DNA from: an uncultured virus (IMG/VR IMGVR_UViG_3300042479_000659)
Lineage: Duplodnaviria > Heunggongvirae > Uroviricota > Caudoviricetes
Strand: one strand, 5' to 3'
Virus record (IMG/VR): IMGVR_UViG_3300042479_000659
Length of the DNA: 20,000 nt
Shown here: piece by piece, positions 273 to 19,741 of the stretch
How the letters are laid out: each line of letters starts with the position of its first letter
How positions within the stretch are numbered: the stretch's first letter is position 1
The notes under the pieces: generated by a model
Database searches by the model: none
Told to the model about the DNA's origin: nothing
What the model saw: only the letters and a program-made list of their open reading frames with translations
Translations under genes and position numbers: made by a program

Positions 273-337
273 GAGAGCCACGGTTGCAGGACCTAGTGTC
301 TCGTTGCCGAGAGAAGTGTCCAGGCGATGCGGCTCTC
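273..337 (-). ncRNA. Candidate 65-nt structured RNA between tRNA-Asp and tRNA-Glu
   Basis: 9-bp closing stem GAGAGCCGC/GUGGCUCUC, inner CCUGG/CUAGG stem, apical UCUCG-GCAA-CGAGA GNRA hairpin; G-U pairs work only on the minus strand. Confidence 0.55.
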
Positions 338-343
338 AAAACT

Positions 344-418
344 TGGCGGTCTGTGGGGGAATCGAACCCCCGTAAGTGGATAGACAATCCACAGTAATAA
401 CCTCTATACGAACAGACC
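344..418 (-). tRNA. tRNA-Asp(GTC)
   Basis: Acceptor GGTCTGT/ACAGACC-G-CCA, anticodon arm GTGGA-TT-GTC-TA-TCCAC, GGTTCGATTCC T-arm. Confidence 0.93.
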
Positions 419-426
419 AAAATCTA

Positions 427-641
427 CTATTTTAAAACATACTAAAGGAACCATTGTGCATCTATGTCTACCTATAGGACCGTCTCCTATAGACCTGCAC
501 GGTCATTACTGCCTACATGCTCCGCCGCTTTTCTGGACATTTCTGCCCGGTTTCATAGACCTAGCTTGAGCGTGGGCGGCCCCACAGTCCTCGCCTTAGA
601 TCCCTAACGGTGTAGGTAACCTTTAATACGTTTTAAAATAG
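427..641 (-). ncRNA. Candidate ~215-nt multi-helix structured RNA closed by a 22-bp stem
   Basis: Arms 620-641 and 427-448 pair over 22 bp with two G-U pairs (minus strand); internal helices CCUACA/UGUAGG, GUGGG-GCCG-CCCAC, GGGCA-GAAA-UGUCC, GUGCA/UGCAC, CUAUAGGA/UCCUAUAG. Confidence 0.65.
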
Positions 642-671
642 CAACCCTTGCAGGTTACCAAAAACAACAAC

Positions 672-705
672 TTTTTAAAGAACGTCTAGTTAATTTCCTA
701 ACTAG
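672..705 (-). promoter_or_regulatory. boxB-like hairpin followed by boxA-like antitermination signal
   Basis: Minus strand CTAGTTAG-GAAA-TTAACTAG (686-705) then GTTCTTTAAAAA (672-683), resembling rrn boxA TGCTCTTTAACA, directly downstream of the 711-739 promoter. Confidence 0.65.
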
Positions 706-710
706 TCTCT

Positions 711-739
711 AGTATAACACAATGGCTATATCTAGTCAA
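711..739 (-). promoter_or_regulatory. sigma70-type promoter (downstream member of a tandem pair)
   Basis: TTGACT-17 bp-TATACT with TGn extended -10. Confidence 0.8.
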
Positions 740-754
740 TTTGTTTTGCAAAGT

Positions 755-876
755 CCCTACACTGTGTAGGGTTATTTGCAGATCCAGCTAATTTCTTAAC
801 TTGTTTCTATTATAGCAAAACGGCATTAAATGGTCAAGTTAGTACTTTAGTATACCCTACAGCAAGTAGGGTTATT
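755..876. repeat. Two copies of palindrome CCCTAC-N5-GTAGGG-TTATT, 100 bp apart
   Basis: 755-771 and 855-871, lying 15 and 17 bp upstream of the -35 boxes of the two tandem promoters. Confidence 0.8.
809..837 (-). promoter_or_regulatory. sigma70-type promoter (upstream member of a tandem pair)
   Basis: TTGACC-17 bp-TATAAT with TGn extended -10. Confidence 0.85.
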
Positions 877-1915: not shown

Positions 1916-2007
1916 TGGCGGAAGACGGAGGAGTCGAACCCCATCCCTGTTAAGAGAACCTGGTTTTCAAGGCCAGTCGCAGGACCAACCCCGCTGCATC
2001 ATCTTCC
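1916..2007 (-). tRNA. tRNA-Ser(TGA) with 8/4 (tRNA-Sec-like) cloverleaf
   Basis: 8-bp acceptor GGAAGATG/CGTCTTCC-G-CCA, 4-bp T-stem GGGG/CCTC around TTCGACT, anticodon loop CT-TGA-AA, long variable arm. Confidence 0.85.
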
Positions 2008-10682: not shown

Positions 10683-11783
10683 TTAGAATAAATCCACAGT
10701 TTCCCAAGGCAAATAGTCTTTGCCAAAGTGTCCGTAGTTGGTTGTGCTACTGTAGATAGGACGGAAGAGATCAAACCGTTCAATAATGCCTCGAGGTGTT
10801 AGGTCAACGTTGTCTTGCACCCACTTGGTCAATTCACGACTTTGTGGTTTGTGGTCTGTTTCAACGTAAAAGCTCATGGGCTGTGCCATGCCAATGGCAT
10901 AACTGATCTGCACAGTTGCCCAATCTGCTCGACCACTGGCCACAATGTTCTTGGCAATCCAGCGTGTCAAGTAGGCAGCACTGCGATCAACCTTAGTGGG
11001 ATCTTTTCCCGAGAAAGCCCCGCCACCATGAGGACTATACCCGCCATACGTGTCAACAATAATCTTGCGGCCAGTAAGCCCAGTATCACCATCGGGGCCA
11101 CCAACGACAAATCTACCAGTGGGGTTAATATAAAATTCAGTTTGATTATCAATATAATTTTTAGGAAGAATATTACGGATAATCGATTCTACTTTGTTGC
11201 GGAGTAACGCTGTTTCAATTTCATCGCTATGTTGTGTAGAACAAACAACTTTAGCGATGCGTTTGGGTGTGCCAGCATCATTGTACTCAAATGTCACTTG
11301 GCTCTTGGCATCTGGGCCTAGCCATTCAATGCCCAGTTCCTTGCGTTGTCGTGCAAGTTCTTCCACAATACGATGGCTCCAATAAATGGCACTGGGCATG
11401 TGTGTATCGGTTTCGTTACAAGCATATCCAAACATCAGTCCCTGATCTCCGGCACCAAATGTGTCTGTGCCCAGTGCAATGTCTACACTTTGCCCATGTA
11501 ACAAATTGGTGATCTCAACAGTGCGCCAATCAAACCCAGACTGTTCGTATCCAACGTCTTTGATAACTCTGCGTACTGCTGATTCAACTTCTTCGGCATG
11601 TAAGATGCCTTTGTATTCGCCAGCAACCACAACACGATTGGTAGTCACTAGTGTTTCACAAGCACAGCGTAGTGCAGGATTTTCCTTGGACATTACCAAG
11701 TCCAGAACAGCATCGCTAATAGCATCTGCAATTTTATCCGGATGTCCTTCGGATACACTTTCACTTGTAAATAGATAACTCAT
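10683..11783 (-). CDS. metK: S-adenosylmethionine synthetase
   Basis: FTSESVSEGHPDK, GAGDQG, GLTGRKIIVDTYGG, HGGGAFSGKD.TKVDRS; start at MSYLF (AAGGAA SD). Confidence 0.98.
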   Translation of the reverse strand: MSYLFTSESVSEGHPDKIADAISDAVLDLVMSKENPALRCACETLVTTNRVVVAGEYKGILHAEEVESAVRRVIKDVGYEQSGFDWRTVEITNLLHGQSVDIALGTDTFGAGDQGLMFGYACNETDTHMPSAIYWSHRIVEELARQRKELGIEWLGPDAKSQVTFEYNDAGTPKRIAKVVCSTQHSDEIETALLRNKVESIIRNILPKNYIDNQTEFYINPTGRFVVGGPDGDTGLTGRKIIVDTYGGYSPHGGGAFSGKDPTKVDRSAAYLTRWIAKNIVASGRADWATVQISYAIGMAQPMSFYVETDHKPQSRELTKWVQDNVDLTPRGIIERFDLFRPIYSSTTNYGHFGKDYLPWETVDLF

Positions 11784-11793
11784 TAATTTCCTT

Positions 11794-12648
11794 TTATTTT
11801 CCCCATCCATTGCCCCAAAGATCCACATGCAATCTTGGAGTATAGTAGTATCCACGCACAAGTGCCCAGTCTGCAACATTCACACGATTCTCTGCATATG
11901 GAGCAACAACACCACCTTGTGGCATAACATATACCACACCTTCAAATCCTGCGGCACGATAAGCAGCCACAGCACGATCTACTTCTTCAAAGTGTACTTC
12001 GCTGTCAATCACAAACTTAAGATACACAGTACCAAAGTTTTGATAGTCTGCAACAATCTCGGGTTTAATTGCCTCTGCCCATGCTTCTCCACTGGCACTG
12101 AGTTTGGGACTGACAGAGAATGTAAGTTCATTGTGTCCAGCAAGCCATGTGTTAAGATATTCTCTAAACTTGGGCTGTAACTTTTGAGTACCATTGGTCT
12201 CAAATGTAACATTCTTAATGCCACGCATATCGTCATGATCAAACAAGTCTTGATATGTACGTTGCCATCCCAGCAATGGCTCACCACCTGTGATCACAAG
12301 ATGTGTGTCATTGCCTGTGCGATTGGTCCAACGACGGTCAGGAATCAAGTCTAGCATTTTGTTTACTAGTTCATCAATCTCATATGTAGGGCTGAGTTCT
12401 TTGAAGTCAGGATGCCAACTTGCATAGCTGTCGCAACCAGTGTTTACAAGCGGCAGCTCTTCAAATGTTTTGTACAAGTGTACGTTCTTGGCAACTTCAT
12501 CTGCTTCGGTGCTTTTCTCACCAGGCCGGCACCCGAAACCTGCACAGGTAAAGTTACATCCAAATGTGCGTAAAAACACACTGGGTACACCAATAAAGCG
12601 ACCTTCGCCTTGTGCCGAATAGAATAGTTCTGATACTTTTAATTTCAT
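11794..12648 (-). CDS. queE: 7-carboxy-7-deazaguanine synthase (radical SAM)
   Basis: ELFYSAQGEG, FLRTFGCNFTC...GCDS, TGGEP, ETNGT, SVSPKL, PRLHV.LW. Confidence 0.9.
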   Translation of the reverse strand: MKLKVSELFYSAQGEGRFIGVPSVFLRTFGCNFTCAGFGCRPGEKSTEADEVAKNVHLYKTFEELPLVNTGCDSYASWHPDFKELSPTYEIDELVNKMLDLIPDRRWTNRTGNDTHLVITGGEPLLGWQRTYQDLFDHDDMRGIKNVTFETNGTQKLQPKFREYLNTWLAGHNELTFSVSPKLSASGEAWAEAIKPEIVADYQNFGTVYLKFVIDSEVHFEEVDRAVAAYRAAGFEGVVYVMPQGGVVAPYAENRVNVADWALVRGYYYTPRLHVDLWGNGWGK

Positions 12649-12653
12649 GTACT

Positions 12654-12683
12654 ATTATACAATAATTGTTTATGACTTGTCAA
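12654..12683 (-). promoter_or_regulatory. sigma70 promoter for queE-metK, probably giving a leaderless mRNA
   Basis: TTGACA-18 bp-TATAAT, then only 5 nt before the queE ATG. Confidence 0.75.
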
Positions 12684-13581
12684 CTAAATTTTTAATAATT
12701 CGTTTGACACCTTGCTCAAATGACATTGGTTTATAATCGGACATGACCGATCTCAATTTGTCAATGTTGGGTCTACGTGTTGCAGTACTGCCGGCCTTGC
12801 CAGGTGAGGTAGTCCACTCAGGGTCAGTGTGACCCAGTTCTTCGGCAATGACTTTTACTGCGTCCCGAATGGTAATTTCTCTATCATTGCCTATGTTGAA
12901 CAGTTCACGTGTTTGTGTTTTGGCGCAGAAAATCGTGGCTCGAACAGCATCTTCTACATGACAAAAACTGCGTGTTTCTTCTGGACCAACAACTTCAAAT
13001 ATACCATTTTGAATCTTGGCAATTTGATCTGCTAAGAAATGTCCGGCCTTGCTGTTGTCGCCGTACACGTTAAAGTACCGTATCATCACATAGGGCAACG
13101 GTGAATTGGTCAAGTAGTTTTCTGCACAGATCTTGGGCAAACGATAACTCCATCTGGCATTGTGAATATTGTTGATTGTGATATCTGTATGCTCAGCAAC
13201 AGGACTAACCGGATCGTCACTTACTACTTCACTGGAACTAGCGTACACTAGTTTTTTTAACTGTTTATTCATGCCGGCAAATTCAAACACATTGAAGTCA
13301 CCCACCATGTTGTTCCATAACACTTGGTTAGGACGCTCGTAAAAGTTCTTGGTTCCGTTGATTGCACCATAGTGATAGATGTAATCAAAGTCCACAGGCA
13401 AGTCTGCGTAGGCCACATCGCCAGCAGTCAAGTCTACATCAATAAACTTGTCACAGGGCGGTATGGTTGAACTACGACTATGGTTGTCCATGGCCCATAC
13501 TACATTTTTTTTATCGTGTTTGAGTTGGCGGCAGATTTCTGTGCCTAATAAGCCGCTGGCACCGGTTACTAATATTTTCAT
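12670..13581 (-). CDS. NAD-dependent NDP-sugar epimerase/dehydratase (extended SDR)
   Basis: TGASGLLG, ASSSEV, YRLPK (YxxxK), RYFNVYG, TRSFCHVED. Confidence 0.92.
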   Translation of the reverse strand: MKILVTGASGLLGTEICRQLKHDKKNVVWAMDNHSRSSTIPPCDKFIDVDLTAGDVAYADLPVDFDYIYHYGAINGTKNFYERPNQVLWNNMVGDFNVFEFAGMNKQLKKLVYASSSEVVSDDPVSPVAEHTDITINNIHNARWSYRLPKICAENYLTNSPLPYVMIRYFNVYGDNSKAGHFLADQIAKIQNGIFEVVGPEETRSFCHVEDAVRATIFCAKTQTRELFNIGNDREITIRDAVKVIAEELGHTDPEWTTSPGKAGSTATRRPNIDKLRSVMSDYKPMSFEQGVKRIIKNLVDKS

Positions 13582-14351
13582 TTGATAAATTTCTCGTTGT
13601 CGTCGATTACACTTTGAATCAGTTTAAAGTCAAGTCCCAGTTTCTTGATCAAGTTATTCCACGCACTGGTGTCTTTGGGCAAGCAATGTCCGCCGTAGCC
13701 ACGTGTGTTTTTATTGGCCATCAAGTATGCAGGGTTGATACAATCACGTTGAGTAATTGCATTGTACACATTCATGTAGTTGGCGTCTAGTTTTTGACAA
13801 ACTTCATAAGTGACGTTGGCAAATGTCACTTGCATGGCATGGTGAACATTGTTAAAGTACTTGACAATTTCTGCTTCTGTAGGTTTAACGCAGGCCACAT
13901 GCTTGGGATAAAACCCATGAATCTTCTTAATCAATTCAAAGTCCTCTTCACGATGGCTGCCAATGATCAACAGGTCATGATTGTGAATAAAGTCTGCCAA
14001 TGCAGTCTTGGCACGTAGGAACTCTGGCACACTACAGATTTTCATACGTGGATACTCTGCACTGAGCCGTTCGCTGGTGCCCGGTACCACTGTACTTTTA
14101 ACTGCAATCAATCCTCGGTAGTTTAGTCCATCAAGATCTTTGATTACATTTTCTACAATGCTGGTATCGCAGTCTCCGTTTGGTGCTTGATTGGTTGGCA
14201 CACTGACAAAAACACAATCAGCGTCTATAACGTCCATGATAGAAGATCCTTCGTATGCAGGATCAAAGAAACACATGTTATGGCCCAGATACTCTAGTCC
14301 TTCGTACACTGCTTTGCCCACAGTGCCTTTACCAATTACACCCACGTTCAT
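13578..14351 (-). CDS. UDP-glucose/GDP-mannose dehydrogenase family protein (short form)
   Basis: GKGTVG, KSTVVPGT, PEFLR, EAEIVKYF.N, GYGGHCLPKD; ends without the C-terminal UDP-binding domain. Confidence 0.9.
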   Translation of the reverse strand: MNVGVIGKGTVGKAVYEGLEYLGHNMCFFDPAYEGSSIMDVIDADCVFVSVPTNQAPNGDCDTSIVENVIKDLDGLNYRGLIAVKSTVVPGTSERLSAEYPRMKICSVPEFLRAKTALADFIHNHDLLIIGSHREEDFELIKKIHGFYPKHVACVKPTEAEIVKYFNNVHHAMQVTFANVTYEVCQKLDANYMNVYNAITQRDCINPAYLMANKNTRGYGGHCLPKDTSAWNNLIKKLGLDFKLIQSVIDDNEKFIK

Positions 14352-14764
14352 TTGTCATCCTCTGGAATGATCGAATCCACTCTGTACGTGTCAGTTTCGT
14401 AGTCTTCTCCGCCACGTGGGCCTTCGGCAAAGGCAATGAATGTACAGCCATCCACAGTGGTTTTCATTGCGTGAATCTCATTGGGCGGACTGATAATAAA
14501 GTCACCTTTTCTGGCCAAGAATTCGGTAGGTGTTCCATCACTGTCTACAGGTTTGCTGTAATACACCATGCTGCCTGTGAGCACATAGGTATATTGAGTA
14601 GTGTGTTTGTGATAGTGATTACCACGTACTGCCCCGGCTGTGTTGGTAATCAAACAGGCGTGATTGACCCCGGCCTTGTAAAAGATATCTGTAATTGTGC
14701 CGCGATCGTCGCTGAACGTTCCTAGCCCTGTTTCGTTGTTGTTGTAAATGTTGTATTGTTTCAT
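14348..14764 (-). CDS. Cupin, NDP-sugar isomerase/epimerase-like (FdtA/RmlC-like)
   Basis: DDRG, RGNHYH....Y.YVL.G, P.E.HA motifs. Confidence 0.75.
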   Translation of the reverse strand: MKQYNIYNNNETGLGTFSDDRGTITDIFYKAGVNHACLITNTAGAVRGNHYHKHTTQYTYVLTGSMVYYSKPVDSDGTPTEFLARKGDFIISPPNEIHAMKTTVDGCTFIAFAEGPRGGEDYETDTYRVDSIIPEDDK

Positions 14765-15993
14765 TGTGATATAAACCTTGTGTTGGGATTGATGCGTAAT
14801 AATGCTCGCTTAAGACCTTCACCAATGTTCCAACTTAAAATTAAAGCGTATGGATTGGGATACTTTGCGAATTCATTATCATCTAAGATTGGTATACGGC
14901 TAAGAGGAGTATACTTACCTTGCTTGTGTTCACTAGCATCGGTAATACAATGCAGGTGTGTTTTATTTAGGCCATGCCACGCAAGCCATGTGTTTGCCTT
15001 GGCGGCAGCACCCACGCCAATGATCACAGCGTCAGGTTCGTCTTGTAGTATTTGATAAAATTTAGCCAACCATGCGTTGCGTTGTTGTTCAAACTTCTTT
15101 TGAAGACCCACGTAAAAGTCTGGATCAAATAACCCAGCAGTGGTTTCTGTGTGGATAGCATTCGACACCTTTTCTGGCACTCCAGCACCTGTGGCTTTCC
15201 TTGCTACCACACGCAAACTGCCACCATGATAATCAACCACATCAAAGTCCGCAATTTCTAATCCAGCCTCTGCCAACAAGTTGTGCAGGCTCTTGACAGT
15301 AAAGTAACTGATGTGTTCATGATACACCATGTCAGTGAAGCGGCCGCTACGAACCATTTCCAGCCAGTATGGAACTTCAAACACAAATACACCATCTTTG
15401 TCCAGTAGAAAACTTACACCATGTGCAAACTCCACAGGCTCATTGGCATGATTGAATACATTGTTGGCAATAACAACTGCGGCACGACCATATTTGGGAA
15501 CAAGATCATATGCAACATTAGGATGAAATACTGCCTGTACTGCATCAACTCCTTGTGATTTGGCCAACTCACACATTGCACTGCTGGAATCAATGCCCAA
15601 CGTGGCGGTTGATTCATTGTTGAATTGTCGAATTAGATATGCATCGTTGCTGCCAATTTCCACCACAAGACCCGCAGTGTTGTATTTTGATTTGATAGTT
15701 GTGGCAAACTCGTCCCAGTGATCTCTTGCTGTCTTTGAGTTGCTGGATGTGTAACTGTAACTGTACAAGTTGTATCTTGCTTCGGCATTGCTGACATACC
15801 CCAATTGCAACATGCCTGAGTTGGGATTTAAATGTACTTGCAATGGAAACACTGGCTCACTGAGATGCAACTGATCCCGGGACACAAACGTGTCTGCGTA
15901 GGCGTGTTGTCCAAAGTCCAATACCTTGGTCACTGATTCTGTAGTGATTAAACATGTGTCCAACTGTCTGCTGTGTGTTATGTCTGTTGTCAT
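14761..15993 (-). CDS. SAM-dependent NDP-hexose C-methyltransferase
   Basis: VEIGSND, ANNVFNH, VFEVPY, YHEH.SYF, HGGSLR, GAAAKANT, KQGKYTP, LSWN motifs of the TylC3/TcaB9-type family. Confidence 0.88.
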   Translation of the reverse strand: MTTDITHSRQLDTCLITTESVTKVLDFGQHAYADTFVSRDQLHLSEPVFPLQVHLNPNSGMLQLGYVSNAEARYNLYSYSYTSSNSKTARDHWDEFATTIKSKYNTAGLVVEIGSNDAYLIRQFNNESTATLGIDSSSAMCELAKSQGVDAVQAVFHPNVAYDLVPKYGRAAVVIANNVFNHANEPVEFAHGVSFLLDKDGVFVFEVPYWLEMVRSGRFTDMVYHEHISYFTVKSLHNLLAEAGLEIADFDVVDYHGGSLRVVARKATGAGVPEKVSNAIHTETTAGLFDPDFYVGLQKKFEQQRNAWLAKFYQILQDEPDAVIIGVGAAAKANTWLAWHGLNKTHLHCITDASEHKQGKYTPLSRIPILDDNEFAKYPNPYALILSWNIGEGLKRALLRINPNTRFISQ

Positions 15994-16811
15994 TTTGGAA
16001 GTTTAAATTGTGTTGTTTGATTGTTTGGATCGTTGGCCTTCATAAGTGCCCATGGATCAATTTTTCCTGCGGCTGCCGCATCCCAGTGGGCGGTGTCGAT
16101 ATTTTTAGATCTCATGTACGCAGCCAGTTTGCCAACGTCAACCAGCCGATTGTGTGTGACGTACTTGTTATGGAAGTCTTCAGGATTTTTTGGATTGCCT
16201 TCAAAGTACTTTTTCTTTTTGGCATTTTCATCTGCATTATTACCAGTTAAATCATGACGGTCGTGTGTGACATCTACTTCAATGATTTTCATTATGTCCA
16301 ACAAGTAAGCCATTTGACTAACTTCAGCATCGATCAATTGATGCTTGCTAAGATAACCTGTTAGCTCTGGCCACTCCGCCGGTATAATGGGAAATATACT
16401 GTATGGATGTTCATTGTGAGTGTGTACTTTTAACAACTTGAACTCTCCGGTGCATTCTATAATACGTTGGTCCCATGCTTGGGTTGACATGATAGCATCG
16501 TCGCACCAAACAAACAACCAGTCAGCGTCGGCATGTTCAGCCAGTGTATTAAAATAACGATTGAGTGCTCCGTAACCCAACGGTTCAAACTCCAGTGCGG
16601 TATATGTCACATCTCGTTGGTCCAATACAGGTTGAATCGCATTGACAAAATGTTCACAGCCAATTTCATCGTTGCTGTCAATGCCAAACACAAATTGTAT
16701 TTGACTCAAGTCGTGGGCATTATCCAACAGACTAAACACACTGCGGCTCAGTGCATCTGTTCGTTTGTGCGTGGGAAGTAGTACGGCTATTTTAAATTCA
16801 CGATTTGTCAT
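15990..16811 (-). CDS. GT-A fold glycosyltransferase (GT2-like)
   Basis: IAVLLPT..R, WLFVWCDD acidic motif, THDRHD. Confidence 0.8.
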   Translation of the reverse strand: MTNREFKIAVLLPTHKRTDALSRSVFSLLDNAHDLSQIQFVFGIDSNDEIGCEHFVNAIQPVLDQRDVTYTALEFEPLGYGALNRYFNTLAEHADADWLFVWCDDAIMSTQAWDQRIIECTGEFKLLKVHTHNEHPYSIFPIIPAEWPELTGYLSKHQLIDAEVSQMAYLLDIMKIIEVDVTHDRHDLTGNNADENAKKKKYFEGNPKNPEDFHNKYVTHNRLVDVGKLAAYMRSKNIDTAHWDAAAAGKIDPWALMKANDPNNQTTQFKLPK

Positions 16812-17418
16812 GGGGAGTTATTGTGATTTGTTCTATCTTGTATTTAATAGCAGTTGCAATGGCCTCAGCAATATCTGCAGGTGTCAGTGCAGGACCTTTG
16901 GCATAGAGTTCTTCAATTTCATCTGGGGTTTTTGCACCTTGATAATTTTGTTTTAACATATTGCTACGTATTTTGCCAGGCCTGATTTCTGTAAAGAGCA
17001 CAGTGGGATACTGTTTCTTCACTGTATTCATACTGTAATGCAGTGCGGCCTTGGCGGCAGTGTAGAATATGTTATACACAATAGGATCATCAATGTTACT
17101 GCTGGTGATATAAATGAAATGTCCGGTGGCACGTTGCTGAACATATTGTTTGGCCAATAGTAGTGCACCAGTGAAGTTTACATCAACTTGATTTTTCTGA
17201 TTTTGCCAAGTATTATCTTGCCAGCCGCGAAATGCACCTACATTGGCACCTGCACAGTTGATAACAATGTCGTACTGAGATAAATCCAATTGATCGATTG
17301 CTTCAAAATTGGATAAATCTAGTTCGTTCCTTGTTGGTGCTGTGATTGTGTGTTGGGCAAACAGTTTGACACATGCTTGACCAACACCAGAACTACCGCC
17401 GGTTATAAACAAGTTCAC
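16798..17418 (-). CDS. Short-chain dehydrogenase/reductase
   Basis: TGGSSGVG, INCAG, VNFTG, YTAAK, PG.I.S.M; GTG start overlaps the queD stop. Confidence 0.9.
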   Translation of the reverse strand: MNLFITGGSSGVGQACVKLFAQHTITAPTRNELDLSNFEAIDQLDLSQYDIVINCAGANVGAFRGWQDNTWQNQKNQVDVNFTGALLLAKQYVQQRATGHFIYITSSNIDDPIVYNIFYTAAKAALHYSMNTVKKQYPTVLFTEIRPGKIRSNMLKQNYQGAKTPDEIEELYAKGPALTPADIAEAIATAIKYKIEQITITPHDKS

Positions 17419-17921
17419 GCAAACAGATCCTCATTCCATTCACGATGGCCTTCACGAAAAGCCATGTTGGCTTGTGTTTCACGTACTTCCACACGATAAC
17501 ACCACAAACGAGCTGCCTCTCCTGGCCCCCACATTTCTGGAATGTAAACGCCATTAACATACTTGTACAGCATGTCGCTGAGTCCTTCACAGCCTAGACG
17601 AGGTAATACTACAACCTTGGCCATTTTCTTTTCCGCCAACAAGTTGTATGTGGCCATTTCTGGATCATCTGCTGCCACAATAAGCGTGTGGTCAAATTGA
17701 TCCTCTAATGTTCGCTTTAGTTCTTTGAGTCCACCATAGTCGGCAGCCCAATTGCGGACGTCTAGGTCGTTGGTACCAAAGAAAAACTTCATACTGAATG
17801 AATAGCCATGTATCAAATTACAATGACTATCTGCCCTCCACTGTCTGTACGCACATGGAAATGCGTCGTGATACTCTTTGGTTGAGGTATATTTGTAAAC
17901 TACGGGATTTAATGTTGTCAT
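17415..17921 (-). CDS. queD: 6-carboxy-5,6,7,8-tetrahydropterin synthase (PTPS/QueD family)
   Basis: HCNLIHGY, ADYGGLK, FDH, GCE, V.VRET..N.A. Confidence 0.88.
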   Translation of the reverse strand: MTTLNPVVYKYTSTKEYHDAFPCAYRQWRADSHCNLIHGYSFSMKFFFGTNDLDVRNWAADYGGLKELKRTLEDQFDHTLIVAADDPEMATYNLLAEKKMAKVVVLPRLGCEGLSDMLYKYVNGVYIPEMWGPGEAARLWCYRVEVRETQANMAFREGHREWNEDLFA

Positions 17922-17928
17922 GCTGTTT

Positions 17929-17991
17929 CTCCTATGTTATTGTAGCATAGGCAGCAGAGTTTGTAAAGCGGGAATGATGCCGAAGACCGCT
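17929..17991 (-). promoter_or_regulatory. Riboswitch-like pseudoknot plus anti-SD hairpin in the queD 5' UTR
   Basis: AGCGG/CCGCU stem, loop GGCA pairs with downstream UGCC, CCUAUG/CAUAGG hairpin covers SD AGGAG; GATAAATA motif just upstream. Confidence 0.55.
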
Positions 17992-18011
17992 GTAAAGAAA
18001 TATTTATCGTA

Positions 18012-18431
18012 TTACACATCGGGATGCGTATAACTGCCTGTGCGATAGTTGCCTTGTCCAGGAATAGTATTCCTAACACCGCCAATGGGATCCTCTACGT
18101 CGCCGGTTCTTCGTGGAATTAAGTGTACGTGTGGCCAAGGCACTGTCTGCCCGGCTGCCGCACCATAGTTTAATCCAATGTTAAATCCATCCCAGACACC
18201 CAATTCGACCTGCGATTGCCCGTGATAGATTGCATCTTGCACAGCATCCATCAGCACACCCACTGTGTTGTATTTAGGTACAAACAACAGATGTCCCGGA
18301 GTCACTGGATAAATGTCCTCAAATACCTGCACATGAAAATCTTCACGCACTAGTTCGGTCCACGGTGCAAGTTGTTTGTTAATTTCCTGCGGCAACCCAG
18401 GAACGATTTCTTTTGTGTGCGGTAAAGTCAT
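18012..18431 (-). CDS. HIT family nucleotide hydrolase
   Basis: PVTPGHLLFVPK, GFNIG.N.G.AAGQTV...HVHLIPR; AAAGGA SD before ATG 18431. Confidence 0.95.
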   Translation of the reverse strand: MTLPHTKEIVPGLPQEINKQLAPWTELVREDFHVQVFEDIYPVTPGHLLFVPKYNTVGVLMDAVQDAIYHGQSQVELGVWDGFNIGLNYGAAAGQTVPWPHVHLIPRRTGDVEDPIGGVRNTIPGQGNYRTGSYTHPDV

Positions 18432-18442
18432 AATTGATCCTT

Positions 18443-19741
18443 TCATTTGACAGTGGTATAGCCCCAGGGCTTACTAAAATATTCCGACAGTTGAATCTGT
18501 GCGGATTCGTTGTTTAACAAATCAAATCCACGGAACTGAGCGTAATAAAAGTCCCAGCCAACACTGTGTTTGGGATTTTGTATCCATTCGGCCTGACTCC
18601 ATGGCATATACTCAGACCATTGTACCCCAGAAACTCTACTGTTAAATTTGGATCCCAACAGTTCAAACACTGCCGCAATTTTGGTGCGTTGCAGTGCATA
18701 GTCGGGCGCTTGATTGGACCAGTGTACAACACTAGGATCTACGTCTTTACCTGTTGCTCCAACCATGATGGTATCTAACAAAATTGGTTTTCGATACAGG
18801 GTAGCAATGCGCTGAATATCAACAATCAAATTAAATACCACAGTATCGTTGATTATACTGGCCACTGTGGTGGCGGTAGATTTGGTTACCTGTGAGCCAA
18901 CATGCACTGCAACAAGATCTACTCGATCCCATACCTGGGTAGTACAGCGATCGCAGGATTCGTAAATCAATTTGCCTGTGTACACAGTTTTGATCTGAGC
19001 AATAACGTTGTCCCAGTCGGCCATGTAAGGGGCTGTATCAAGCCCAAGATTCATGGTTCCAATGTAAAATCCATCCACTTTGTATTTCTCTGCTTCTGTG
19101 GCCAATACTCGTTGATACGAGACTAGAGTGTTAAAGAAATTTGTGGTGGAGAATGTGGACGGCAATACAAATTTTGAACTGGTGCAGCCAGGACAAATAA
19201 GCCAATCAGTGATGTGATTGACCGGAATTGCTTTGATAAACACACGGAGTCCTCGGTCTTTGGAGTACTTGACCAGTCGCCAAAAATCTTTAGGTATATT
19301 CTTATCACGGTTGTAAGCAACCGGGCTTGAGTCATACAATGCTAAATGTCCAGTTTTGATATCAATAGGAATATTGGTTTGAAAAACAATTGTATCAAAT
19401 CCAACACAATCAATCTTATCAATAACCCGAGACACAGCATCGTATCCAGCTACCAATTTACCGTCCGCGGTATAGTCAATTTGTTCGAATCGCATGTCTA
19501 TGATTGCACTGCGGTATTTGTCGGAGCCTATTGCAGGTTTGACTATGCAATTAGTAAGAGCCGAAACTGTGTGTGTAGTAGGGGCAGGTGTGGACGCAAC
19601 TGCCGCAGGCGTGGACGCAACTGCTACAGTAGTTTCTATTGCAGTGGTGCCAGGCCCGGTTATCGGAGTTCCGGCCCCACCTCCTCCGCCACACCCAGTT
19701 AGGAATAAAATCAGCCCAATTGTGCTAACAATAAAACGCAT
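18443..19741 (-). CDS. Lipoprotein with GH113/GTA-like TIM-barrel domain
   Basis: Lipobox LTGC then Gly/Thr/Ala/Pro linker; RGLRVFIK, AEKYKVDGFYIGT, WDNVIAQIKTVYTGKLIY, WDRVDLVAV, KPILL patterns. Confidence 0.6.
   Translation of the reverse strand: MRFIVSTIGLILFLTGCGGGGGAGTPITGPGTTAIETTVAVASTPAAVASTPAPTTHTVSALTNCIVKPAIGSDKYRSAIIDMRFEQIDYTADGKLVAGYDAVSRVIDKIDCVGFDTIVFQTNIPIDIKTGHLALYDSSPVAYNRDKNIPKDFWRLVKYSKDRGLRVFIKAIPVNHITDWLICPGCTSSKFVLPSTFSTTNFFNTLVSYQRVLATEAEKYKVDGFYIGTMNLGLDTAPYMADWDNVIAQIKTVYTGKLIYESCDRCTTQVWDRVDLVAVHVGSQVTKSTATTVASIINDTVVFNLIVDIQRIATLYRKPILLDTIMVGATGKDVDPSVVHWSNQAPDYALQRTKIAAVFELLGSKFNSRVSGVQWSEYMPWSQAEWIQNPKHSVGWDFYYAQFRGFDLLNNESAQIQLSEYFSKPWGYTTVK
19584..19624. repeat. 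21-nt-period tandem repeat in the lipoprotein linker (AVASTPA x2)
   Basis: gcaggtgtggacgcaactgcc followed by gcaggcgtggacgcaactgc. Confidence 0.85.

What the first reader, a model, noticed from the sequence alone, without database searches (positions are those of the whole stretch)
427..641. ~215-nt ornate non-coding RNA as first product of the internal tRNA promoter
Seen: a 22-bp AU-rich closing stem whose two non-Watson-Crick positions are G-U only on the minus strand. It encloses a GC-rich core with at least five helices, including a GAAA-capped hairpin (535-548). Two possible pseudoknots exist: loop GCCG (577-580) with CGGC (524-527), and GUCUAUG (554-560) with CAUAGAU (460-466). It lies between boxA and tRNA-Asp with no long ORF. 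I see no RNase P, tmRNA or SRP signatures. Inference: a stable structured RNA excised from the tRNA precursor, of unknown function.
Basis: partly seen in the sequence, partly recalled or inferred. Interest (0 to 1): 0.7.

Follow-up and report, generated by a model that had tools for sequence, protein, structure and literature searches.

The report
Uncatalogued folded RNA of giant lake phages
The flagged stretch is a real gene for a tightly folded, roughly 220-base non-coding RNA that uncultured giant freshwater phages carry once per genome, often at the head of their tRNA genes; it matches no catalogued RNA family and its job is still unknown.

Summary
Window 643-425 (minus strand) folds into a 24-bp AU-rich closing helix around a GC-rich multi-helix core.

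Evidence that it is a real RNA family:
- I collected 128 distinct relatives from phage and lake metagenome contigs.
- On two separately gathered sets, 88-90% of cells are paired against 37-44% when partners are slid. Compensatory changes occur in 61 of 75 and 59 of 75 pairs.
- G-U pairs fix the RNA strand as that of the tRNAs.

What it is not:
- No Rfam 15 family matches, even with lax settings.
- It is not homologous to T4 rnaC/rnaD.
- It was not found in one genome each of 185,579 bacterial and archaeal species.
- It was not found in two cultured jumbo-phage relatives.

Distribution: it is single-copy in 5 of 5 large phage genomes. A same-strand tRNA starts within 400 nt downstream in 59 of 128 variants, Asp first in 36. 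Another 48 have no tRNA there, and the stand-alone loci I read have their own promoter.

A different loop-loop contact, 580-577 with 482-479, has modest support.

Most likely it is a trans-acting stable RNA. It would be released by RNase III or by tRNA-processing enzymes and would bind a host factor; that last step is inferred.

The scan found this family before on other DNA (e1-5322397, e1-5322417).

The parts
809..837 (-). Upstream sigma-70-like promoter site (TTGACC, 17 nt, TATAAT, with TG)
   Evidence: 11 of 12 matches. Such sites are not enriched over shuffles in the region (5 found, 5.5 expected). It is kept in close relatives by eye.
711..739 (-). Proximal sigma-70-like promoter site (TTGACT, 17 nt, TATACT, with TG); the expected start is near 704
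   Evidence: 10 of 12 matches. Conserved in L003, L004 and L010. Function not shown.
686..705 (-). Leader hairpin (CUAGUUAGG AA AUUAACUAG)
   Evidence: Read from the sequence; kept in L003, L004 and L010.
672..683 (-). boxA-like motif GTTCTTTAAAAA
   Evidence: Read from the sequence. The motif [GT]TTCTTTAA[AG]AA lies 31-77 nt upstream of the element in 18 of 49 members examined. The likeness to rrn boxA is recalled, not tested.
620..643 (-). P1 5' arm of the closing helix
   Evidence: 24 pairs. 22 of 24 P1 pairs have compensatory changes.
606..616 (-). 5' strands of P2 (CCUACA) and P2b (CCGUU)
   Evidence: for coordinates. Covariation appears once members are found without using this block as bait.
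557..604 (-). P3 stem with internal loop and the P3a hairpin (585-572; loop GCCG at 580-577)
550..556 (-). Junction AUGAAAC (AUGAA at least 90% conserved)
533..549 (-). P4 hairpin with GAAA tetraloop; the loop is GNRA in most relatives I read, and the stem is sometimes extended
512..526 (-). 3' strands of P2b (GGCGG, 526-522) and P2 (UGUAGG, 517-512)
503..511 (-). Three-way-junction strand CAGUAAUGA; GUAAUGA was part of my search patterns, so its invariance is partly by selection
451..502 (-). P5 (502-496 with 460-451), conserved internal loop GUAGACAUAGA (471-461), and P6 hairpin (493-471) with 7-nt loop AGACGGU (485-479)
425..448 (-). P1 3' arm of the closing helix
344..418 (-). tRNA-Asp (GTC), which starts 6 nt after the P1 helix

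Best explanation
Window 643-425 (minus strand) is the gene of a new family of compactly folded phage non-coding RNA.

Shown:
- The architecture is a long closing helix P1 and a three-way junction joining P1, P2 and P5. One arm is P2-P2b, which opens into a branch carrying P3/P3a and the GNRA-capped P4. The other arm is P5, a conserved 11-nt internal loop, and P6.
- It is kept by compensatory changes across 128 distinct variants.
- It occurs once per genome in giant (235-353 kb) tRNA-rich phages from lakes.

Likely (about 0.7): the P3a loop and the P6 loop touch each other through at least two base pairs.

Inferred (about 0.6): host RNA polymerase transcribes it from consensus-like sigma-70 promoters. 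This happens either as the first unit of a boxA-led tRNA operon, as in this window, or as a unit of its own. The two-turn AU-rich P1 helix serves to release the RNA and protect its ends. Host RNase III would cut within P1. Where tRNAs abut P1, RNase P and the tRNA 3'-end enzymes would set the ends.

Inferred, weakest step (about 0.3): the mature particle acts in trans. Its near-invariant junction and loop nucleotides would form a surface that binds and diverts a conserved host factor, as 6S RNA or adenovirus VA RNA do.
For: Structure:
- 90.5% of cells are paired against 37-44% when partners are slid. 61 of 75 pairs have changes on both sides, and 0 of 500 shuffles reach the observed values, on 65 distinct sequences.
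- This was replicated on 74 distinct metagenome sequences: 87.9% paired, 59 of 75 pairs.
- The strand is set by G-U pairs in P1.

Identity and distribution:
- Not in Rfam.
- One copy in 5 of 5 genomes, each of which carries 20-33 tRNA matches.

Trans-acting rather than leader:
- 48 of the 107 variants with enough flank have no tRNA within 400 nt downstream.
- In the stand-alone loci I read, a TTGACA/TATAAT-type promoter ends about 7 nt before P1, and the next gene's promoter follows P1 directly. The downstream genes differ between loci.

Release:
- P1 has 19-26 pairs in 81 of 125 variants measured.
- Of 59 variants with a tRNA downstream, 31 have it starting within 7 nt of the end of the match.
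- Some members are sandwiched flush between two tRNAs.
- No terminator-like site was found after P1 in the window.

Presence in RNA libraries:
- Contigs cover 347-819 and 292-563.
- A 198-nt contig of a relative has the highest depth of the pieces listed, 261.

Loop-loop contact:
- 82.2% paired against 75.6% in shuffles (0 of 500), and 15-60% when slid.
- Three loop combinations carry compensatory changes: GGCA with AGAUGCG (7), GAUG with AGACAGA (2), GCUG with AGACAGA (1).
Against: - No RNA ends, strand-specific reads or processing sites were seen. Only contigs were available, and DNA carry-over in RNA libraries is not excluded.
- RNase III cleavage is inferred from helix length alone. The phages encode no RNase III of their own (0 of 5).
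- 44 of 125 variants have a shorter P1 of 4-18 pairs.
- No binding partner is known. No Ro60 and no L7Ae homologue is encoded in 5 of 5 genomes.
- The middle pair of the proposed loop-loop contact fits in only 67 of 96 rows and is only weakly linked. The alignment is out of register for one subfamily.
- All relatives were found with patterns taken from the family itself, so its true breadth and its invariant positions are partly set by how I searched.
Confidence: 0.55

Rival explanations
1. It is a cis-acting module of the tRNA operon. In this reading it is a leader that helps antitermination, folding or RNase P/RNase III processing of the downstream tRNAs and has no function of its own after release.
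For: - In the window it sits between a boxA-like motif and tRNA-Asp, 6 nt from the tRNA.
- 59 of 128 variants have a same-strand tRNA within 400 nt downstream, and 31 of those within 7 nt.
- boxA-like motifs lie upstream in 18 of 49 members.
Against: - 48 of the 107 variants with enough flank have no tRNA within 400 nt downstream.
- Stand-alone copies have their own promoter, are followed by unrelated protein genes with their own promoters, and can lie about 250 kb from the main tRNA array.
- A 170-nt core with near-invariant junctions is far more than a processing stem needs.
Confidence: 0.1
2. It is a ribozyme or a ligand-binding aptamer. The conserved junctions would form an active site or pocket, for instance for self-cleavage that sets its own ends.
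For: - The fold is compact, with a three-way junction, a branched arm, a GNRA loop and a candidate loop-loop contact.
- Junction strands are near-invariant, both strands of P2/P2b are strongly conserved, and the helices covary.
Against: - No match to any ribozyme or riboswitch family in Rfam 15, even with lax settings.
- No conserved cleavage site or alternative pairing was found.
- A 19-26 bp P1 is too stable to act as a switch helix.
Confidence: 0.12
3. It is a trans-acting binder of tRNA-Asp, a T-box-like clamp. The 7-nt P6 loop would present A plus an Asp codon (AGAY) to the GUC anticodon.
For: - The P6 loop reads AGAC or AGAU in 118 of 128 variants. For 10 of these my pattern matched an AGACGAU in the internal loop, and I read the true hairpin loop as AGACGGU by eye only in the members checked.
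- In the window AGACGG is complementary to UUGUCU of the phage tRNA-Asp anticodon loop, with 4 Watson-Crick and 2 G-U pairs.
- The first downstream tRNA is Asp in 36 of 59 cases.
Against: - The P6 loop does not covary with the two tRNA-Asp loop types, UUGUCUA and UUGUCAC.
- C and G of the same loop covary with the P3a loop instead.
- There is no Rfam T-box match, and no terminator/antiterminator pair was seen.
- A three-letter match is weak evidence.
Confidence: 0.05
4. It is a DNA-level element, not an RNA. The 22-bp inverted repeats would be the ends of a miniature mobile element or a protein-binding cruciform such as an origin or packaging site.
For: - A GC-rich core of about 55% sits in flanks of 31-39% GC.
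- It is bracketed by a 22-bp inverted repeat.
Against: - G-U pairs make the fold strand-specific.
- Compensatory changes occur in every internal helix.
- There is one copy per genome, the terminal 15-mer matches only the two arms in the window, and I saw no target-site duplication by eye.
- The P1 sequence differs completely between phage lineages while the core is kept.
Confidence: 0.02

Closest known systems
Phage T4 rnaC and rnaD (species 1 and 2 small stable RNAs, 139 and 119 nt, GenBank AF158101 annotation)
   Same: Both are small stable RNAs of unknown function. Both are encoded on the tRNA strand inside a phage tRNA gene cluster, directly beside tRNA genes. From recall, not seen here: T4 species 1 RNA is a substrate of RNase III in vitro.
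   Different: - They are not homologous. The family model scores at most 4.7 bits over rnaC and rnaD with filters off.
- T4 rnaC ends in a tRNA-like T arm, and this RNA has none.
- The T4 RNAs lie at the distal end of the cluster, whereas this one lies at the head or stands alone.
- This RNA is larger and has a 24-bp closing helix.
Leader and processing stems of bacterial rRNA operons (boxA antitermination; RNase III stems around 16S and 23S); recalled knowledge
   Same: A boxA-like motif sits in an untranslated leader. It is followed by a structured RNA enclosed by a long helix formed from its 5' and 3' flanks, and tRNA genes follow in the same transcript.
   Different: - The enclosed RNA is about 170 nt.
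- It has no sequence likeness to any E. coli genome, rRNA genes included.
- Neither the boxA function nor RNase III cutting has been tested.
phi29-type packaging RNA (pRNA)
   Same: Both are phage-encoded RNAs of similar size, with a long helix made of the 5' and 3' ends, a three-way junction, and two loops that can pair with each other.
   Different: - There is no Rfam match to any family, the pRNA family included.
- The carriers are giant phages, not small protein-primed podoviruses.
- The core sequence is strongly conserved, whereas pRNAs share little sequence (recalled).
- Whether the loop-loop pairing is within or between molecules is untested.
Bacterial Y RNA / YrlA with Ro60 (PMC4201824; I saw the search listing and the start of the abstract only)
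   Same: Both are non-coding RNAs with paired ends and a structured module. YrlA occurs in some phages and is linked to tRNA mimicry.
   Different: - There is no YrlA (RF02553) match on the element.
- It has no T-arm-like sequence.
- No Ro60/TROVE gene is present in 5 of 5 carrier genomes.
GOLLD and ROOL RNAs (bioRxiv 10.1101/2024.12.08.627333; I saw the listing and the start of the abstract only)
   Same: These are ornate, covariation-supported RNAs of unknown function. From recall, they are associated with phages and often lie next to tRNA genes. GOLLD was first seen in lake metagenomes.
   Different: They are several times larger (recalled). Both are in Rfam and do not match here. Self-assembly of this RNA is untested.

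Membership tests
Any Rfam 15 family (4227 models) | Covariance-model match at or near the family's gathering score | tested here: not met
   - No match on 427-641 at gathering scores.
- None at E up to 10 in a 3-kb scan.
- In a 231-nt scan the only hit was a 10-bit chance match on the other strand.
- None on the element in 20 diverse relatives at E up to 5.
T4 rnaC / rnaD stable RNAs | Sequence and structure homology to the T4 genes | tested here: not met
   Model R1 with filters off over T4 69500-74500 gives at most 4.7 bits within rnaC and rnaD. The best hits anywhere are about 10 bits, in short AT-rich hairpins.
T4 rnaC / rnaD stable RNAs | Small non-tRNA RNA gene on the tRNA strand inside a phage tRNA cluster | tested here: met
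   Window layout; T4 annotation.
Y RNA / YrlA | Ro60 (TROVE) gene in the same genome | tested here: not met
   PF05731 was found in 0 of 5 carrier genomes. The control search found it in Deinococcus and Bacteroides.
Y RNA / YrlA | tRNA-like domain (RF02553 match) | tested here: not met
   The only weak RF02553 hits lie on true tRNAs, not on the element.
T-box riboswitch | Match to the T-box family model in Rfam | tested here: not met
   No T-box match. No terminator-like site follows the element on its strand.
T-box riboswitch | Specifier codon that pairs with the anticodon of the cognate tRNA and changes with it | tested here: inconclusive
   The P6 loop carries GAY in 118 of 128 variants. 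It does not covary with tRNA-Asp loop variants, and the same bases covary with the P3a loop.
RNase P RNA, tmRNA, SRP RNA, 6S RNA | Match to the family model, or ARAGORN detection for tmRNA | tested here: not met
phi29-type pRNA | Intermolecular pairing of two loops that builds a ring on the prohead | not testable with these tools
   The loop-loop complementarity has modest covariation support. Sequence alone cannot tell pairing within a molecule from pairing between molecules.
Miniature inverted-repeat mobile element | Many dispersed copies with target-site duplications | tested here: not met
   One copy in each of 5 genomes. The terminal 15-mer matches only the two arms in the window. I saw no duplicated flank by eye.

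The most novel reading that the evidence does not exclude
The RNA is a virus-made clamp for tRNA-Asp, a trans-acting counterpart of the T-box. Its P6 loop (AGAY, conserved in 118 of 128 variants) would read the GUC anticodon. The P3a loop would compete for the same bases as an internal lid. In this way the phage could sense, sequester or shield tRNA-Asp during infection.
Probability: 0.05. Interest if true: 0.85.

Novelty: new variant of a known kind. Interest (0 to 1): 0.62.

Why it matters
- Small stable RNAs beside phage tRNA genes have been annotated as "function unknown" since T4 species 1 and 2.
- This is a much better handle on that question. The family has 128 distinct variants in hand and more than 120 further metagenome loci, a helix-by-helix covariation model, one copy per genome, and two genomic settings: operon head and stand-alone gene.
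- Together these features argue for a trans-acting role.
- It is compact enough, about 170-220 nt, for structure determination, pull-downs and expression in a laboratory host.
- If it binds a host factor, acts catalytically or captures a tRNA, it would be a new RNA-based tool of giant phages.

Tried and rejected
GCCG 580-577 with CGGC 527-524, and GUCUAUG 560-554 with CAUAGAU 466-460, are no better than shuffles. The first also clashes with P2b.
- **A further pseudoknot.** An all-against-all column scan found only register extensions of known helices (48:133, 146:211) and lineage-linked pairs.
- **Middle pair of my loop-loop contact.** It fits in 67 of 96 rows, so it is only weakly linked.
- **DNA similarity.** E. 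coli genomes gave no match at E up to 10.
- **Cellular genomes.** Two patterns gave 0 hits. Only exact pattern matches are found this way.
- **Cultured relatives.** These were picked through the 5'-3' exonuclease (51% identity to Pseudomonas phage PA5oct). The model found nothing in PA5oct or in Erwinia phage Hallingskeid.
- **Phage-encoded partner proteins.** TROVE/Ro60, RNase III and L7Ae were each found in 0 of 5 genomes.
- **RNA libraries.** Only assembled contigs were on hand, so starts, ends, strand and level could not be read. Parts without cover say nothing. The 198-nt high-depth contig of a relative starts about 8 nt into the P1 3' arm, which I note only as a hint.
- **Literature.** Four full-text searches turned up no description of this family. 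This does not prove that none exists. The passages I read in PMC2330249 do not mention rnaC or rnaD.
- **Own genome.** The window's own assembly is not held.

Full report
**Setting**

The window is part of an uncultured giant phage.
- The nearest held record shares 75% of sampled words and is rated 12% complete at 57.8 kb.
- The 5'-3' exonuclease is 51% identical to that of Pseudomonas jumbo phage PA5oct.
- Other window genes include SAM synthetase, a sugar-nucleotide gene cluster and a PTPS/QueD-like gene.

On the minus strand the order is as follows:
- tRNA-Ser, Phe, Arg, Ile and Trp (1290-879).
- Two sigma-70-like sites (837-809 and 739-711).
- A leader with a hairpin (705-686) and a boxA-like GTTCTTTAAAAA (683-672).
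- The flagged element.
- tRNA-Asp (418-344).
- A second small folded element (337-273).
- tRNA-Glu and tRNA-Tyr.

**The observation**

The 22-nt inverted repeat is real: 427-448 / 620-641, 91% complementary, 171 nt apart. Its two non-Watson-Crick positions are G-U and U-G on the minus strand and C-A and A-C on the plus strand. The helix runs two pairs further, to 643-620 / 448-425, giving 24 bp.

The minus strand folds at -77.0 kcal/mol (z -4.57, 0 of 200 shuffles). The plus strand folds at -62.7 kcal/mol (z -3.99). No minus-strand ORF of 20 aa or more lies in 420-720.

**Relatives**

Pattern scans of IMG/VR gave the following.
- A 20-mer from the core: 10 loci.
- A degenerate 29-mer: 33 loci.
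- A 17-mer: at least 119 loci. Part of these were false hits in the Walker-A region of a protein gene.
- A pattern from the 3' domain: 58 loci. Of 59 matches in these, 19 lack the 17-mer.

All 80 loci fetched with flanks match the model. Pooled, there are 128 distinct sequences.

**Structure**

I aligned 35 members and ran RNAalifold. It predicted 53 pairs, 36 of them with compensatory changes. I built a covariance model from the window's fold mapped on that alignment and re-aligned all hits.

| Set | Distinct sequences | Cells paired | Paired when slid | Pairs with changes on both sides | Shuffles reaching this |
|---|---|---|---|---|---|
| Viral | 65 | 90.5% | 37-44% | 61 of 75 | 0 of 500 |
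| Metagenome | 74 | 87.9% | 39-41% | 59 of 75 | 0 of 500 |

These alignments are fitted to the model and so lean towards it. The slid controls and the plain MAFFT/RNAalifold result argue the signal is real.

At first P2 and P2b looked invariant. That was an effect of my bait. Members found through the 3' domain show compensatory changes:
- P2: CCUAC/GUAGG changes to CCUAG/CUAGG, CCUAA/UUAGG, CCUAU/AUAGG and CCCAC/GUGGG.
- P2b: CCGUU/GGCGG changes to CCACU/GGUGG and CCAUU/GAUGG.

The architecture in window coordinates:
- P1: 643-620 with 448-425.
- A three-way junction joins P1, P2 and P5.
- P2: 616-611 with 517-512.
- P2b: 610-606 with 526-522.
- P2b opens into a branch with P3/P3a (604-557; P3a loop GCCG at 580-577) and P4 (549-533, GAAA).
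- Junction strands: AUGAAAC (556-550) and CAGUAAUGA (511-503).
- P5: 502-496 with 460-451.
- Conserved internal loop GUAGACAUAGA: 471-461.
- P6: 493-471, with the loop AGACGGU at 485-479.

**Tertiary contacts**

The P3a loop and the P6 loop are complementary (G580-U479, C579-G480, C578-G481, G577-C482).
- On the alignment this contact gives 82.2% paired against 75.6% in shuffles (0 of 500), and 15-60% when slid.
- By loop type, the two core pairs hold in all 106 rows with GNCG and AGACGNU loops. In these rows the paired bases do not vary.
- The core pairs change together in GGCA with AGAUGCG (7 rows), GAUG with AGACAGA (2 rows) and GCUG with AGACAGA (1 row).
- The neighbouring pair fits in 67 of 96 rows. 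I left out 10 rows in which my pattern picked an internal AGACGAU.
- Two lineages with odd loops changed both loops at once.

I rate this contact likely but not proven. The alignment is out of register in P3a for one subfamily.

**Where it sits**

- Of 128 variants, 59 have a same-strand tRNA starting within 400 nt downstream. The first tRNA is Asp in 36, Glu in 10, Leu in 5, Ser in 3 and others in 5.
- In 31 of those 59 the tRNA starts within 7 nt of the end of the match.
- 48 variants have no tRNA within 400 nt downstream, and 21 loci are too short to tell.
- In the stand-alone copies I read, a consensus-like promoter ends about 7 nt before P1. The next gene's own promoter follows straight after P1. 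The downstream genes differ.
- Some copies lie flush between two tRNAs.
- It is single-copy in 5 of 5 genomes of 235-353 kb, each with 20-33 tRNA matches.
- In one genome it lies about 250 kb from the main tRNA array.
- P1 has 19-26 pairs in 81 of 125 variants measured and is shorter in 44.

**What it is not**

- No Rfam family.
- Not homologous to T4 rnaC or rnaD, which are the closest known by setting.
- No likeness to any E. coli genome.
- Absent from one genome each of 185,579 cellular species at pattern level.
- Absent from PA5oct and Hallingskeid. The same kind of search found it in 5 of 5 carrier genomes.
- The carrier genomes encode no Ro60, RNase III or L7Ae.

**Expression**

Twenty runs hold the stretch or part of it, and six of them are RNA libraries. 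I laid four RNA runs.
- One 505-nt contig covers 347-819.
- One 272-nt contig covers 292-563.
- A 198-nt contig of a diverged relative covers 446-510 at depth 261, the highest of the pieces listed.

These were contigs only, so ends, strand and level cannot be read, and DNA carry-over is possible.

**How it most likely works**

*Shown:* this is a conserved, compact RNA fold, selected at the RNA level on the tRNA strand, and independent of tRNA adjacency.

*Inferred:*
- Host polymerase transcribes it early.
- In operon copies, boxA shields the long untranslated transcript from termination.
- P1, two helical turns long and AU-rich, is the release and end-protection helix. It would be cut by host RNase III, or the ends would be set by tRNA-processing enzymes where tRNAs abut.

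*Weakest step:* the mature particle binds a conserved host factor through its near-invariant junction and loop nucleotides.

*Rivals:* an operon leader acting in cis, a ribozyme or aptamer, a T-box-like tRNA-Asp binder, and a DNA-level element. The last is largely excluded.

**Earlier notes of this scan**

After I had reached this reading, a look-up showed two earlier reports on the same family in other genomes, e1-5322397 and e1-5322417. Their conclusions match mine: an uncatalogued RNA, once per genome, with kissing loops, and T4 rnaC/rnaD as the closest known. I re-derived each of these points here.

- Covariation in P2 and P2b.
- A formal rejection of the two proposed pseudoknots.
- The AGAY / tRNA-Asp test.
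- The absence from two cultured relatives.
- The metagenome replication.

Noticed in passing
window 273-337, minus strand (between tRNA-Asp and tRNA-Glu): This is a second conserved small folded RNA of about 65 nt: an outer 9-bp stem and an inner GNRA-capped hairpin. It folds at -31.3 kcal/mol, z -3.46. My loci hold 13 distinct variants with compensatory changes in both stems, for example GAGAGCCGC/GUGGCUCUC against GAGUUAC/GUAACUC. There is no Rfam match.
   Followed up: partly
window 1920-2007, minus strand: Rfam gives a sub-threshold tRNA-Sec-like match of 36.6 bits against a gathering score of 47, which ARAGORN missed. Its 3' end resembles the other tRNA 3' ends (repeat D1). It overlaps the start of the 222-aa ORF 1276-1944. 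It may be a long-arm tRNA or a tRNA look-alike.
   Followed up: no
window 344-418 and relatives: The phage tRNA-Asp has an unusual anticodon loop, UUGUCUA, with U at position 37. Other members of the group carry the usual UUGUCAC or CUGUCAC.
   Followed up: no
window 755-776 and 855-876: Two copies of a hairpin module (CCCTAC nnnn GTAGGG TTATT) lie 100 nt apart, each just upstream of one of the two promoter-like sites. On the plus strand they score as terminator-like.
   Followed up: no
L055, L064, L092, L165, L166, L183 (upstream of the element): In one lineage of stand-alone copies the element is preceded by another conserved stretch of about 110 nt. It follows its own promoter and looks like a further folded RNA.
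   Followed up: no
L144 and L208 (76-299 and 302-530): These loci hold two tandem copies of the element. The upstream copy has both the P3a and P6 loops altered, and the downstream copy is canonical and abuts tRNA-Asp.
   Followed up: partly
L010 and L011, between tRNA genes downstream of the element: There are further stem-closed inserts of 200-450 nt between tRNAs, one closed by a 16-bp helix. These phages appear to pack several unrelated folded RNAs into their tRNA regions.
   Followed up: no
window 10683-19741: This block encodes SAM synthetase, a nucleotide-sugar epimerase and dehydrogenase, a C-methyltransferase, a PTPS/QueD-like protein and a HIT-domain protein. It is a sugar or base-modification gene block typical of large phages.
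   Followed up: no
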